Positions 47,740-50,118 of a DNA stretch of 64,000 nucleotides are shown here, one piece after another. The number at the start of each line of letters is the position of its first letter. Position 1 is the stretch's first letter. The translations under genes and the position numbers were made by a program. Under the pieces are notes generated by a model. It was given only the letters and a program-made list of their open reading frames with translations. It ran no database searches and was not told the DNA's origin. The stretch is from the human T2T-CHM13v2.0 reference genome, Homo sapiens: the NCBI RefSeq assembly GCF_009914755.1, contig NC_060925.1. One strand, written 5' to 3'.

Positions 47740-47950
47740 GTGAATGAATAACGATAACTGGCAAACGTTGAGTGCTTACTTTGTACCAACACTAGGCTAA
47801 GCCCTTTACATGCATTATCTGATGTTATCTTCACAAAGCCCGATGAGATAGGAACTGTATTTTTATACCCATTTTGCAGATGAGGAAACTGATGCTCAGT
47901 GGTTTGTCCAAGGTCACCCAGCTGGTTAATAGCCAGGATGAGAACCCAGG
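47740..47950. mobile_element. MIR
   Basis: cccattttgcagatgaggaaactga...tgtccaaggtcacccagctgg...agccaggatgagaacccagg. Confidence 0.8.
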
Positions 47951-48018
47951 AGTGGCAGGGACAGAAGGAGCTCTCAGGAAGGACACAGAGGGGCTGAGCT
48001 TCAGGGCCATGCTGTCCC
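47931..48018 (+). repeat. Upstream arm of 88-bp inverted repeat (pairs with 49988-50075)
   Basis: Hand alignment: 84/88 identity to the reverse complement of 49988-50075. Confidence 0.95.
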
Positions 48019-48540
48019 ACATTCTCCCATTTACTGGGGTGACCATGCAGCTGTCACGGAGATGTGCCTGACATGGGGTAGGGACAGGAAATAAGTGTCT
48101 GGGGCCAATTAGAGGGAGATGTCTCCTTCTTCTTAGGGAAGGAGGCTGGGTGGGCAGGGAAGGTCCCGACAAAGCTGTGCATCTGTGTTCTTTGCAATAT
48201 GTGGTCCGTAGTGTGGGGTTTTCAAAGAGAGGGGCAGCCAAATCAGGCCCTCTCCGAGGCCTGCACTGGGTTGCTGCAAGGGCTCTGGTGGTGGGCTGGG
48301 GACAGCTGGGACCTGTGGGAAGTAGGAGGCTCTGGTCAGACTGGCAGTGGAGGCCAGAGAAGGAAGGAAGAGCCATGGCCGTTGAAGTCCCCAGCTCTTG
48401 CCTGGGCTCACTCTTGGTCCTTGGGGAGCATGGGCAGGGTAGGGACCGAGAGGCTTAGGGGCCAGAGTAAGGACTTGGGAACTGGAGCGGTCTTGGGGTG
48501 TGTGTCAGGGACTTCGACCTTACTGGGCTGCCCATTACAG

Positions 48541-48619
48541 AATCCACACAGGCGACAGACCCTACAAGTGCCCACATCCTGGCTGCGAGAAGGCTTTCAC
48601 TCAGCTCTCCAACCTCCAG
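48541..48619 (+). CDS. ZNF362: ZNF362 exon 7 ([26 protein letters not shown])
   Basis: Acceptor ttacag|A, donor CAG|gtgagt; TGDRP linker; 79 nt. Confidence 0.97.
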
Positions 48620-48750
48620 GTGAGTGCCTGCCTGCCTCCTGCCCACCAGGTGCTCTGGTGCCCCCCCACCCACCCCCACAAGGAAGCGTAGGAAGGGGGT
48701 GGGGTGAGGGAGCCCTGTTCCTCTCCTGACCCCCTGCTGTGCCCCCACAG

Positions 48751-48909
48751 TCTCACCAGCGCCAGCACAACAAGGACAAGCCCTACAAGTGTCCCAACTG
48801 CTACCGGGCCTATTCGGACTCCGCTTCTTTGCAGATCCACCTCTCGGCCCACGCCATCAAGCACGCCAAGGCCTACTGCTGCAGCATGTGTGGGCGGGCC
48901 TACACCTCG
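48751..48909 (+). CDS. ZNF362: ZNF362 exon 8 (end of finger 4, finger 5, start of finger 6)
   Basis: Acceptor ccacag|TCT, donor TCG|gtgagt; 159 nt. Confidence 0.97.
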
Positions 48910-49266
48910 GTGAGTGCCGGTCGGCCTGTGCCCTGCCCCGGGGGAGCCACTTCGTCTTCCAGGCCTCAGTTGCTTCCCCATTGTCAGATCTGTGTCGACT
49001 CTTCCCATTTTCCAGACAAAGAAATTGAGGCCTAGAGAAGGGAAGTGACACCCTGAGATCACAGGGAAGGGGAGAACCAGAGCTTTTGCTTCCCACTTCT
49101 GGTTTCAGCTACCCCTGACCAAGCCCCTAGCCTCCTGCTCACCTTTAGCCTGAGTCTCCGAGGCCCTGGAGTACTCACAGCAGTGGCAGGAGGCTTTTCA
49201 CCTGCTCTGCAGAGCTACAGAGAGAGAAGCGCCTTCCTGTCACCCAGGAAGCTGCAACCCCCATTG

Positions 49267-49285
49267 TGGCCACAAGGTGGCGCAG
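49267..49285 (+). promoter_or_regulatory. CTCF core motif
   Basis: tggccacaaggtggcgcag closely fits the CTCF consensus TGGCCACCAGRKGGCGC. Confidence 0.65.
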
Positions 49286-49759
49286 TGACATGGCCCATAG
49301 CCACCCTCATCTCAGGAAAGGCCTGAGCAGCCCGGAAAGCTCAGAGCATTCAGCTCCCGTCCCTGGGTGGGAATTTCCCCAAACGAGGGCCTTTTGGCAC
49401 CCAGAAATACCATTCACCCCCAGGCGAATCGCTTGAGTGTGTGCTTCTGTTTGATCTAATATTCTAGTTAACAGACCCCGTATCCCCGACATAGAGGTCA
49501 CTGAGCCTCAGTTTCCTCATCTGTCAAATGGATGAACTCACAGGGCTGTTGGCTGGCAGAGTGGTGCCAAATCAACCTGAGCTAGTACCATTATTTATTC
49601 ACTCAGTCTTTACTAAACACTTCTGCCTGGTGCTCGGGCATTGGGATGAGCCAGACAGATCTATTTTTTGCCCCCAGGGAAATTAAGAACTGTTGGAGAC
49701 AAGTATTAAACAAGTACACACGTAACTGTTTGACGGGAAATTGTGTAGCTGCTGTAAAG

Positions 49760-50118
49760 CAGAGACTCTCGGCCCTAGTCCAGATGGACATTTGGGCCGG
49801 ACCTTTCCACTGTGGGCGCTGGCCTGCACGTGGCAGGGCTCTGAGCAGCATTCCAGGCCTCCATCCGCTAGATGCCAGTAGCAACCGCTCCCCAAGTGGT
49901 GACAGCCAAAAAATGTCTTCAGGGATGACACAGAGGGGCTGAGCTGCAGGGCCATGCCGTCCTGCATTCTGGAGTCCTGCATCCTGGGGGACAGCATGGC
50001 CCTGAAGCTCTGTCCCTCTGTGTCCTCCCTGGGAGCTCCTTCTGTCCCTGCCACTCCTGGGTTCTCATCCTGGCTCTTTGTCCCTGGGGGGCAAAATCAC
50101 CTCAATTGAGAACCACTG
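49760..50118 (-). mobile_element. MER20 hAT MITE split by a ~155-bp insertion (~49923-50077)
   Basis: ctagatgccagtagca...gtgacagccaaaaaatgtcttcag | insertion | tgtccctggggggcaaaatcacctcaattgagaaccactg. Confidence 0.85.
49988..50075 (-). repeat. Downstream arm of 88-bp inverted repeat
   Basis: See 47931-48018. Confidence 0.95.

What the first reader, a model, noticed from the sequence alone, without database searches (positions are those of the whole stretch)
47931..50075. Non-Alu 88-bp inverted repeat brackets ZNF362 exons 7-8: candidate dedicated back-splicing / exon-skipping element
Seen: 47931-48018 matches the reverse complement of 49988-50075 at 84/88 positions, with the first 43 perfect. 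The arms lie ~520 nt upstream of the exon 7 acceptor and ~1080 nt downstream of the exon 8 donor. The identity is far higher than chance pairs of old MIR/MER copies, and most of the arm is not a recognisable repeat. Established: reverse-complementary matches in flanking introns drive back-splicing and are ADAR substrates. Inference: the duplex loops out exons 7-8, giving a 238-nt circRNA and/or skipping. I recall a ZNF362 circRNA being catalogued but cannot verify its coordinates. More distal opposite-orientation Alus (42047 +, 51123 -) could reinforce the pairing.
Basis: partly seen in the sequence, partly recalled or inferred. Interest (0 to 1): 0.85.

Follow-up and report, generated by a model that had tools for sequence, protein, structure and literature searches.

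The report
Local inverted copy flanking known circRNA exons
Two nearly identical 94-base stretches in opposite orientation sit in the introns either side of ZNF362 exons 7-8, made by a one-off local copying accident, and they probably help these exons form an already catalogued circular RNA.

Summary
The longest exact inverted match is 43 nt, against a maximum of 22 in 200 shuffles. It is not a repeat family: the only genome matches are three local copies.

The upstream arm is the source. Its first ~23 nt continue an old dispersed SINE-like repeat. The downstream arm belongs to a 160-nt compound insertion (49919-50078) holding the inverted copy, a spacer with a 15-nt tandem duplication, and a partial direct copy. 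This block replaced ~15 nt in the middle of another old dispersed repeat.

The predicted circle exists. hsa_circ_0009027 is listed with a 238-nt spliced length and a 369-nt span, and a published primer crosses the exon 8|exon 7 junction.

Folding predicts arm pairing (-197.5 kcal/mol; mean pair probability 0.92). Causation is untested. Alu pairs also flank the exons, one paper lists a mouse orthologue, and no RefSeq isoform skips the exons. "Dedicated" is unsupported. This is a new member of a known kind.

The parts
47928..48021 (+). Arm A: upstream arm and source copy, in intron 6, 520 nt before the exon 7 acceptor
   Evidence: the repeat finder. It sits in native context: dispersed copies of the flanking old repeat align through to 47950 in 2 of 7 fetched copies. 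It is unique in the genome apart from the local copies.
49985..50078 (-). Arm B: inverted copy of arm A in intron 8, 1076 nt after the exon 8 donor. It has 6 differences in 94 nt. Read in the sense RNA, two of those differences still pair as G-U.
   Evidence: In the minimum-energy fold of 47700-50300, 86 of 94 arm A positions pair with arm B in register.
49919..49973 (+). Copy C: partial direct copy of the source, matching 47974-48025 or a little further at 88-91%. It runs a few bases past the end of arm B's homology and can form a local hairpin with arm B positions 49989-50031.
   Evidence: (I2: 43 nt, 88%, 26-nt loop). Hairpin 49915-50035 folds at -87.6 kcal/mol.
49959..49987 (+). 15-nt tandem duplication (1.9 copies, 92%) forming most of the spacer between copy C and arm B
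   Evidence: Tandem Repeats Finder
49919..50078 (.). The whole 160-nt compound insertion (C + spacer + B), which replaced ~15 nt in the middle of an older dispersed repeat
   Evidence: In 9 of 9 fetched dispersed copies the two flanks lie next to each other. In 3 of 9 both flank alignments reach the junction and are exactly 15 nt apart.
49740..49918 (-). 3' half (read on the minus strand) of the old dispersed repeat that was split by the insertion
   Evidence: 38 dispersed matches at 74-85% identity, all confined to this flank (query positions 242-387).
50079..50140 (-). 5' half (read on the minus strand) of the same old dispersed repeat
   Evidence: local alignments to the 9 copies, with low scores (18-46) because the flank is short and diverged. 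Also visible in alignment A2.
47782..47950 (+). Old dispersed SINE-like repeat whose tail forms the first ~23 nt of arm A. I recall it as MIR; no tool named it.
   Evidence: 38 dispersed matches at 70-95% identity covering query positions 3-171. Extension checked.
48541..48619 (+). ZNF362 exon 7 (79 nt), first exon of the circle; its acceptor takes part in the back-splice
   Evidence: RefSeq annotation; sequence; literature
48751..48909 (+). ZNF362 exon 8 (159 nt), second exon of the circle; its donor takes part in the back-splice
   Evidence: RefSeq annotation; sequence; literature
47869..47901 (+). Upstream member of a weaker, older complementary pair with 49499-49531 (33 nt, 91%), next to arm A
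   Evidence: I3. Duplex of the slightly larger stretches is -57.5 kcal/mol, net -29.3.
49499..49531 (-). Downstream member of that older complementary pair, in intron 8
   Evidence: I3
51113..51437 (-). Alu-like repeat in intron 8 that pairs with at least six opposite-orientation Alu-like repeats in intron 6 (36110-42374). It rivals or reinforces the arm pairing.
   Evidence: Net cofold energies are -269 to -290 kcal/mol for the four pairs tested.

Best explanation
A single local DNA copying accident took a ~94-nt piece of ZNF362 intron 6, partly the tail of an old SINE-like repeat and mostly unique sequence. It was written in inverted orientation, together with a shorter direct copy and a short spacer, into the middle of an old dispersed repeat in intron 8, about 2 kb downstream. 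The likely mechanism is a replication or repair template switch. The event is old, dated to roughly 20-35 million years ago with wide error, so it probably arose in the primate lineage. It is not a mobile element. As a by-product, the sense pre-mRNA now carries a near-perfect 94-nt complementary pair bracketing exons 7-8. When the arms pair, they loop out a 1963-nt segment and bring the exon 8 donor close to the exon 7 acceptor. This favours the back-splice that yields the catalogued 238-nt circle hsa_circ_0009027. Shown here: the repeat, its uniqueness, its polarity (upstream is the source, downstream is the insertion), the existence and junction of the circle, and the predicted pairing. Inferred: the template-switch mechanism, the age, pairing in cells, and above all that this pair, rather than the flanking Alus or protein factors, contributes materially to the circle. 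There is no evidence that it evolved for this role.
For: Repeat and significance. Uniqueness: the 94-mer and the 200-nt stretch 47951-48150 each give only the three local matches in the whole reference at E<=10. Polarity: the upstream flank is a dispersed repeat with 38 dispersed matches, and 2 of 7 fetched copies align through to 47950, which is inside the arm. The downstream block interrupts another dispersed repeat with 38 dispersed matches, all on one flank. Its two halves lie next to each other in 9 of 9 fetched copies, and exactly 15 nt apart in 3 of 9. Compound structure; copy C extends past the end of arm B. Age: 4/88 to 6/94 differences. Circle: coordinates, 238-nt length and a junction-spanning primer; RNase R-enriched RNA-seq and RT-qPCR. 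Pairing: duplex -197.5 kcal/mol, net -138.1. In a 2.6-kb fold, 86 of 94 positions pair in register, mean pair probability is 0.92, and the local hairpin has probability ~0. Principle: ~30-40-nt inverted repeats suffice in minigenes, and the authors expect unannotated complements to work too (PMC4201285 abstract and section 15). Template switching is known to create inverted copies and hairpins in primate genomes (abstracts of PMC5453318 and PMC10710096). In the papers found, the only ZNF362 circle with an exon-exon junction is the one bracketed by this pair.
Against: No experiment links the arms to the circle. Four intron 6 Alus pair with the intron 8 Alu at net -269 to -290 kcal/mol, about twice the net energy of the arms, and could drive the same circle. 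PMC9831722 Table 4 lists a predicted mouse orthologue as 'down (LS)' in spinal cord. That suggests the exons circularise without this repeat, if the repeat is absent from mouse, which I could not check. The running text of the same section does not name this orthologue, and the supplementary figures are closed. Copy C lies 26 nt from arm B and would fold first during transcription; the equilibrium fold ignores kinetics, proteins and editing. The fold covered 2.6 kb without the Alus. Microhomology at the junctions cannot be resolved after divergence. The age range is wide (5-70 Myr at phylogenetic rates, rates recalled). No primate or mouse genome was available, so lineage specificity is inference. 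No paper on A-to-I editing in ZNF362 was found.
Confidence: 0.5

Rival explanations
1. Neutral bystander. The inverted duplication is real but adds little. The circle is driven by the flanking Alu pairs, the older short complementary pair, short exons and intron 7, or RNA-binding proteins.
For: At least six intron 6 Alu-like repeats complement the intron 8 Alu at 51113-51437, with net energies of -269 to -290 kcal/mol for the four tested against -138 for the arms. A predicted mouse orthologue is listed as measurable (PMC9831722 Table 4). An older 33-nt, 91% pair also flanks the exons. Liang and Wilusz note that the presence of repeats does not guarantee a circle (section 15).
Against: The Alu pairs are 9-15 kb apart against 2 kb for the arms. 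They compete with within-intron partners: 36732-36816 pairs with other intron 6 Alus, and 51175-51288 pairs with 51823-51936. The arms are the closest and most complementary pair, and 30-40 nt suffice in minigenes. The mouse evidence is a single table cell without sequence confirmation.
Confidence: 0.33
2. The main RNA-level consequence is a double-stranded RNA substrate rather than circle formation. On this reading the 86-bp near-perfect duplex is edited by ADAR, bound by dsRNA-binding proteins, or slows removal of the introns.
For: The predicted duplex is long and nearly perfect. Liang and Wilusz discuss ADAR editing of just such intron pairs and its expected inhibition of circles (section 15).
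Against: No editing data were available, and no paper pairs ZNF362 with A-to-I. This reading does not exclude circle promotion; both can occur.
Confidence: 0.1
3. The local fold-back (copy C with arm B, 49919-50031) is the functional unit, serving as an intronic hairpin processed as a microRNA-like precursor. The long-range pair would then be incidental.
For: The hairpin has 43-nt arms, 88% pairing, a 26-nt loop and -87.6 kcal/mol. Template-switch events are reported to have made new primate microRNA genes, enriched in introns (PMC10710096 abstract). Several microRNA models hit the hairpin weakly.
Against: All Rfam hits are far below the gathering scores (best 36.1 bits against 97). RefSeq annotates no microRNA gene in the window. 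At equilibrium the long-range duplex displaces the hairpin, whose probability is ~0.
Confidence: 0.04
4. Both arms are copies of an unrecognised low-copy interspersed repeat, or an assembly artefact or private variant of this one reference genome.
For: The first 23 nt of the arm are repeat-derived. The genome search scores only the best candidates and skips very common words (tool caveat).
Against: Only local matches were found at E<=10 for the 94-mer and for the 200-nt unique stretch. The homology has sharp ends. The downstream copy sits in a demonstrable insertion site. Six differences between the arms argue against a recent private event or a misassembly. An hg19 array-circle span from the exon 7 start to 33766320 is 5784 nt, against 5795 nt from the exon 7 start to the gene end in the window. 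That gap of about 11 nt is far from the 145 nt expected if hg19 lacked the block. This comparison is weak, because it assumes that both spans end at the same point.
Confidence: 0.03

Closest known systems
Inverted Alu pairs flanking circularised exons (ZKSCAN1, HIPK3, EPHB4; Liang and Wilusz 2014, PMC4201285)
   Same: Complementary sequences sit in the two introns that bracket the back-spliced exons. The arm length is well above the ~30-40 nt shown to suffice, and the proposed action is the same: intron pairing brings the downstream donor near the upstream acceptor (abstract and section 15).
   Different: The arms are not Alu and not any dispersed family. They are 94% complementary, against 70-89% for the Alu pairs in this locus, and they arose from one local duplication rather than two independent insertions.
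Non-Alu complementary pairs supporting circles, such as the inverted DNA transposon repeats at GCN1L1 mentioned by Liang and Wilusz, and the long inverted repeats flanking mouse Sry (the latter recalled, no call)
   Same: They show that the nature of the complement does not matter, only the pairing. Sry is likewise flanked by a locus-specific inverted duplication (recalled).
   Different: GCN1L1 uses two transposon copies. The Sry arms are, as I recall, many kilobases long. Here the arm is 94 nt and comes with a built-in competing partial copy.
Template-switch mutations that create inverted copies and hairpins in primate genomes (Loytynoja and Goldman 2017, PMC5453318; Monttinen et al. 2023, PMC10710096)
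   Same: A reverse-complement copy of nearby sequence is written in one event and gives near-perfect pairing at birth. It lies in an intron, so it is transcribed with the host gene. A fold-back hairpin is also created (abstracts).
   Different: From their abstracts, those events are short and local and make hairpins. Here the template lies ~2 kb away, the copy is 94 nt plus a second segment, and the proposed product is a long-range intron clamp, not a microRNA. I read only the abstracts and opening text, so their size limits are not quoted.

Membership tests
Intronic complementary pair driving back-splicing (reverse-complementary match flanking a circle) | Inverted complementary sequences, one in each intron flanking the circularised exons | tested here: met
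   Arms 47928-48021 (intron 6) and 49985-50078 (intron 8), 94 nt, 94%
Intronic complementary pair driving back-splicing (reverse-complementary match flanking a circle) | An observed back-splice junction joining the donor of the last enclosed exon to the acceptor of the first | tested here: met
   From the literature only. hsa_circ_0009027 has a 369-nt span and 238-nt spliced length, a primer crosses the exon 8|exon 7 junction as in the window, and it was found in RNase R-enriched RNA-seq. No reads were examined here.
Intronic complementary pair driving back-splicing (reverse-complementary match flanking a circle) | The arms pair across the exons in preference to other partners | tested here: inconclusive
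   In the equilibrium fold of 47700-50300, 86 of 94 positions pair in register with mean probability 0.92. The distal Alus were not in the fold, and kinetics and proteins are ignored. The Alu pairs have larger net energies.
Intronic complementary pair driving back-splicing (reverse-complementary match flanking a circle) | Circle yield depends on the pairing (loss on arm deletion, rescue by compensatory change) | not testable with these tools
   Needs a minigene or genome editing
Alu or other interspersed repeat pair | Each arm is a copy of a dispersed multi-copy family | tested here: not met
   Only three matches, all local, for the 94-mer and for 47951-48150 at E<=10. Only the first ~23 nt belong to a dispersed repeat. 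No masked stretch of at least 100 nt covers either arm.
Templated inverted insertion (template switch during replication or repair) | The inserted segment is a reverse-complement copy of nearby sequence on the same chromosome | tested here: met
   Arm B is the inverse of arm A, 2 kb away, and copy C comes from the same source in direct orientation
Templated inverted insertion (template switch during replication or repair) | A recognisable insertion site with the uninterrupted state seen elsewhere | tested here: met
   Shown with paralogous copies of the split repeat: 9 of 9 have adjacent flanks, and 3 of 9 are exactly 15 nt apart. The orthologous empty site in other species was not testable.
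Templated inverted insertion (template switch during replication or repair) | Microhomology at the switch points | tested here: inconclusive
   By eye, 0-3 nt are possible at both junctions. This cannot be resolved after divergence and without an outgroup.
microRNA precursor (local fold-back 49919-50031) | A match to a known family at its curated score, or an annotated gene | tested here: not met
   Best Rfam score is 36.1 bits against a gathering score of 97. No microRNA gene is in the RefSeq rows for the window.
ADAR editing substrate | A long, nearly perfect intramolecular duplex | tested here: met
   Prediction only: 86 paired positions with two internal mismatches
ADAR editing substrate | Observed A-to-I sites in the arms | not testable with these tools
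   No read data were available. No paper holds both ZNF362 and 'A-to-I'.

The most novel reading that the evidence does not exclude
A primate-lineage template-switch accident created, in one step, a near-perfect 94-nt intron clamp that is the main driver of the human ZNF362 exon 7-8 circle. This would be a natural case of a circular-RNA-promoting element born de novo from non-mobile sequence, in the way template switches are reported to give birth to microRNA hairpins. The event also left a partial decoy copy 26 nt from the downstream arm. During transcription the decoy can hold half of that arm in a local hairpin, leaving the 47-nt, almost perfectly matched outer half free as a toehold. That would make circle yield tunable by anything that affects hairpin stability, such as helicases, editing or elongation rate.
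Probability: 0.25. Interest if true: 0.55.

Novelty: new member of a known kind. Interest (0 to 1): 0.38.

Why it matters
The circle hsa_circ_0009027 is used as a disease-associated marker in several studies: ALS muscle and spinal cord, glioblastoma, lung adenocarcinoma plasma exosomes and prostate cancer cell data. None of the passages I saw discusses how it is made.

A short, unique, nearly perfect complementary pair 2 kb apart is an unusually clean handle. The whole unit fits in a 2.6-kb minigene, either arm can be deleted without touching an Alu, and the built-in partial copy allows a direct test of local competition.

If the block is lineage-specific, species with and without it provide a natural experiment on how much one complementary pair adds to circle output. 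It would also extend the known products of template-switch mutation from hairpins to long-range intron pairing.

If the arms prove dispensable, the locus is a useful negative example. It would show that even a 94% complementary, 94-nt pair close to the splice sites does not by itself determine circularisation.

Tried and rejected
Interspersed repeat or MITE origin of the arms: rejected. Whole-reference searches with the 94-mer and with 47951-48150 returned only the local copies.

Chance similarity of two old repeat copies: rejected. The dispersed copies of the flanking repeats are 70-85% identical (a few short matches reach 93-95%), against 94% for the arms. The homology has sharp ends that do not coincide with the repeat ends.

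Known RNA family: an Rfam E-value scan of 47500-50500 gave 11 rows, all below gathering scores. Eight lie on the local fold-back as generic microRNA-hairpin matches, and three lie in or beside intron 7 (Flavi_TBFV_SL6 at 23.7 bits, H19_3, mir-3154). I take these as chance.

Exon skipping: 0 of 8 RefSeq transcripts skip exons 7-8. A skip would shift the frame and stop at 52558 in the last exon.

Selection for pairing: of the four core mismatches, two remain G-U pairs in the sense RNA. Four sites are too few to distinguish this from chance. The perfect 43-nt run is not significant at 6% divergence (about 7% by my arithmetic).

Literature that led nowhere: Zfp362 with circRNA, 0 papers. Zfp362 with 'circular', 3 papers held and 2 listed, both irrelevant. 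ZNF362 with A-to-I, 0 papers. circRNA with 'template switch', 285 papers; in the 15 listed, judging by titles and abstract starts, the term is used in the reverse-transcriptase-artefact sense, and none links replication template switching to circle-flanking complements. These are the only searches behind my statement that the arm-circle link is not in print. This includes the mouse orthologue figures and primer file of PMC9831722 and all database-style tables, which may hold relevant data.

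Full report
OBSERVATION. The repeat finder gives arms 47928-48021 and 49985-50078: 94 nt, 94% complementary, 1963 nt apart. The arms lie 522 nt before the exon 7 acceptor and 1078 nt after the exon 8 donor. Exons 7 and 8 are correctly numbered for NM_152493.3.

The longest exact inverted match in 46500-51500 is 43 nt, against mean 13.1 and maximum 22 in 200 dinucleotide-preserving shuffles. 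Among the 14 inverted pairs of at least 60 nt that lie within 4 kb of each other anywhere in the window, this one is the most complementary, 94% against 78-87%. A pairwise alignment of the two neighbourhoods shows that the homology starts and stops abruptly.

WHAT IT IS NOT. It is not a mobile-element pair. A search of the whole reference with the 94-mer at E<=10 returns three places, all local: the arm itself, the inverted copy (94%), and a 44-nt partial direct copy at 49919-49962 (91%). A second search with 47951-48150, which is the arm without its first 23 nt plus 130 nt beyond it, again returns only the three local places. The tool warns that only the best candidates are scored and that very common words are skipped, so these are not proofs of absence. 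In both searches, though, every first-look candidate was scored (2 of 2). No masked stretch of at least 100 nt covers either arm.

ANATOMY AND POLARITY. The upstream flank of arm A is an old dispersed repeat. A search with 47780-48080 gives 41 rows (79 candidates, 40 scored). Three rows are local and 38 are dispersed, at 70-95% identity, covering query positions 3-171. I recall this repeat as MIR; no tool named it. Of seven fetched copies, two (L016, L018) align through to 47950, which is 23 nt inside the arm. One reaches 47931, and four end before 47917. Arm A therefore continues its neighbour seamlessly and sits in native context.

The downstream arm does not. A search with 49740-50170 (minus strand) gives 42 rows (121 candidates, 40 scored). 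Four are local and 38 are dispersed, at 74-85% identity, and every dispersed row covers only query positions 242-387, the flank on one side of the block. In nine fetched copies the sequence matching the other flank lies directly next to it. In 9 of 9 the best match of the short 5' flank is within 61 nt. In three (L006, L008, L010) both flank alignments reach the junction and are exactly 15 nt apart. One (L014) overlaps by 4 nt. The 5'-flank scores are low (18-46) because the flank is short and diverged.

So 49919-50078 is a 160-nt insertion that replaced about 15 nt in the centre of an older repeat. The block has three parts. Copy C matches 47974-48025 or a little further at 88% and in direct orientation. 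A spacer follows, most of which is a 15-nt tandem duplication at 49959-49987 (1.9 copies, 92%). Arm B, the inverted copy, completes the block. Copy C runs a few bases past the point where arm B's homology ends, so it was not simply copied from arm B. At least two segments were templated from the same source.

ORIGIN (inference). A reverse-complement copy of sequence 2 kb away, a second segment from the same source, a sharp insertion site and no target-site features of transposition all fit a replication or repair template switch. Such events are reported to create inverted copies and hairpins in the human and other primate genomes (PMC5453318 and PMC10710096; I read the abstracts and opening text). 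Microhomology at the junctions is possible (0-3 nt by eye) but cannot be resolved.

AGE (inference). The arms differ at 6 of 94 positions, or 4 of 88 in the core. At rates of 1.0-1.2e-9 per site per year (recalled), this gives about 20-35 million years, with a 95% range of roughly 5-70. That is younger than expected for a neutral pair dating from before the primate-rodent split. It is far too old for a private or assembly-specific event.

Where all three copies overlap, the third copy polarises the differences. Arm A changed at 47979, arm B changed at 47974, 47993 and 47995, and copy C changed at four positions (47981, 48001, 48013, 48018). Position 48019 differs in all three. No other genome could be consulted, so presence in apes and absence from mouse are predictions.

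THE CIRCLE. That is a 369-nt span, the same as window 48541-48909. PMC8810173 lists it with a spliced length of 238 (table passage), which equals 79 + 159 nt.

The forward primer published for it (PMC8667166 Table 1, passage) reads across the end of exon 8 into the start of exon 7 exactly as in the window. The reverse primer lies in exon 8. That paper reports the circle as higher in glioma by RNA-seq and consistent by qRT-PCR in three sample pairs (passages).

PMC9831722 found it in RNase R-enriched RNA-seq of muscle. It reports it lower in ALS muscle and spinal cord without a change in ZNF362 mRNA (passages and the whole of section 19). PMC4872085 lists ZNF362 among genes with a circle higher in glioma (table passage). 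PMC6798000 lists an array probe, hsa_circ_011474, spanning from the exon 7 start to near the gene end (table passage). PMC12657405 I saw only in search listings. None of these passages discusses how the circle forms.

PAIRING. In the sense RNA the arms form a duplex of -197.5 kcal/mol, or -138.1 net of the arms' own folds. Folding 47700-50300 as one RNA pairs 86 of 94 arm A positions with arm B in register. The mean pair probability is 0.92, and the local C-B hairpin has probability near zero. On its own that hairpin is -87.6 kcal/mol.

Split in halves, the outer half (47928-47974 with 50032-50078) is -99.7 kcal/mol and almost perfectly matched. The inner half is -91.7, against -78.2 for C with B. 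During transcription, C and the inner half of B emerge 26 nt apart and should fold first. The outer half of B would then be free to find arm A, and the more stable A-B pairing could displace C. This order of events is inference.

COMPETITORS. The intron 8 Alu-like repeat at 51113-51437 complements at least six opposite-orientation repeats in intron 6, with arms of 88-135 nt at 78-89% (25 of 54 pairs were shown). Four full-length pairs give net energies of -269 to -290 kcal/mol. They are 9-15 kb apart and have within-intron rivals: 36732-36816 pairs with other intron 6 copies, and 51175-51288 pairs with 51823-51936. An older 33-nt, 91% pair (47869-47901 with 49499-49531) also brackets the exons.

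MECHANISM AND ITS STANDING. Inverted repeats of ~30-40 nt with the splice sites suffice for circularisation in minigenes, pairing is required, and the authors expect unannotated complements to work (PMC4201285 abstract, section headings and section 15). The ZNF362 arms meet every sequence-level condition, and they bracket exactly the exons that circularise. That is a strong correlation, not a demonstration.

Some evidence points against a necessary role. PMC9831722 Table 4 lists the predicted mouse orthologue as 'down (LS)' in spinal cord. However, the running text of that section does not name it among late-stage decreases, the supporting figures are supplementary and closed, and amplification with divergent primers is not sequence proof. 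I found no paper on a Zfp362 circle.

'Dedicated' is not supported. The element looks like a mutational accident, and the few substitutions give no signal of selection for pairing. Exon skipping is not supported by annotation (0 of 8 transcripts). A skip would shift the frame and stop at 52558 in the last exon, leaving 302 native residues plus 4 and removing the residues encoded by exons 7-8.

COMPARISON AND NOVELTY. It works like an inverted-Alu pair but is not one. It belongs with the less common locus-specific complements: the transposon pair at GCN1L1 and the Sry inverted repeats (recalled). Its origin resembles the template-switch events said to make new hairpins and microRNAs, at longer range. 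The circle is already known, and the principle is established. What I did not find in print, within, is this pair as the circle's likely driver, or replication template switching as a source of circle-promoting complements. I rate it a new member of a known kind, of moderate interest, chiefly as a clean experimental system.

VERDICT. Confidence in the full best explanation is 0.5. The origin story alone is about 0.85, and a material contribution to the circle is about 0.5-0.6.

Noticed in passing
48541-48619 + 48751-48909 (the 238-nt circle): The circle has no stop trinucleotide in any of the three sense frames, including across the back-splice junction, while the antisense strand has 10. It has a single ATG at circle position 215, in the ZNF362 reading frame. 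Because 238 is not a multiple of 3, this gives an endless open frame in principle. Zero stops occurred in 7 of 5000 dinucleotide shuffles and 216 of 5000 codon-order shuffles. There is no evidence of translation.
   Followed up: partly
32658-32913 and 36143-36398: A 256-nt, 81% complementary inverted pair, Alu-like by its masked position, brackets ZNF362 exons 5-6 (33724-34057, 35181-35405). I saw no circle from these exons in the papers found.
   Followed up: no
49919-50031: Copy C and arm B form a long local hairpin (43-nt arms, 26-nt loop, -87.6 kcal/mol) that attracts sub-threshold microRNA-family matches on both strands, the best at 36.1 bits against a gathering score of 97. No microRNA gene is annotated here.
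   Followed up: partly
49959-49987: A 15-nt tandem duplication (1.9 copies, 92%) makes up most of the spacer between copy C and arm B. It may be a later slippage event or part of the original rearrangement.
   Followed up: partly
48835 (within exon 8): The predicted transcript XM_054334635.1 uses an alternative acceptor at 48835. This shortens exon 8 by 84 nt and stays in frame. A circle made with this acceptor would be 154 nt.
   Followed up: no
48541 to about 54324: An array probe named hsa_circ_011474 is listed for ZNF362 at hg19 chr1:33760537-33766320. That runs from the exon 7 acceptor to about the end of the last exon, which has no donor site (PMC6798000 table passage). It is probably not a conventional back-splice product.
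   Followed up: no
48900-49416 and 52387-52567: RefSeq functional-element rows place an 'H3K4me1 hESC enhancer' just after exon 8, between the exons and arm B, and a 'silencer fragment' at the intron 8/exon 9 border.
   Followed up: no
PMC9831722, section 19 and Table 4: Table 4 marks the mouse orthologue of hsa_circ_0009027 as 'down (LS)' in spinal cord, but the text listing late-stage decreases does not name it. An earlier sentence names hsa_circ_0009027 twice in one list. The mouse evidence should be checked in the closed supplement.
   Followed up: partly
48667-48709 (intron 7): There is a weak Rfam match to a tick-borne flavivirus stem-loop model (23.7 bits against a gathering score of 38.3, E = 0.0055) in the G+C-rich 131-nt intron 7. 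I take it as chance.
   Followed up: no
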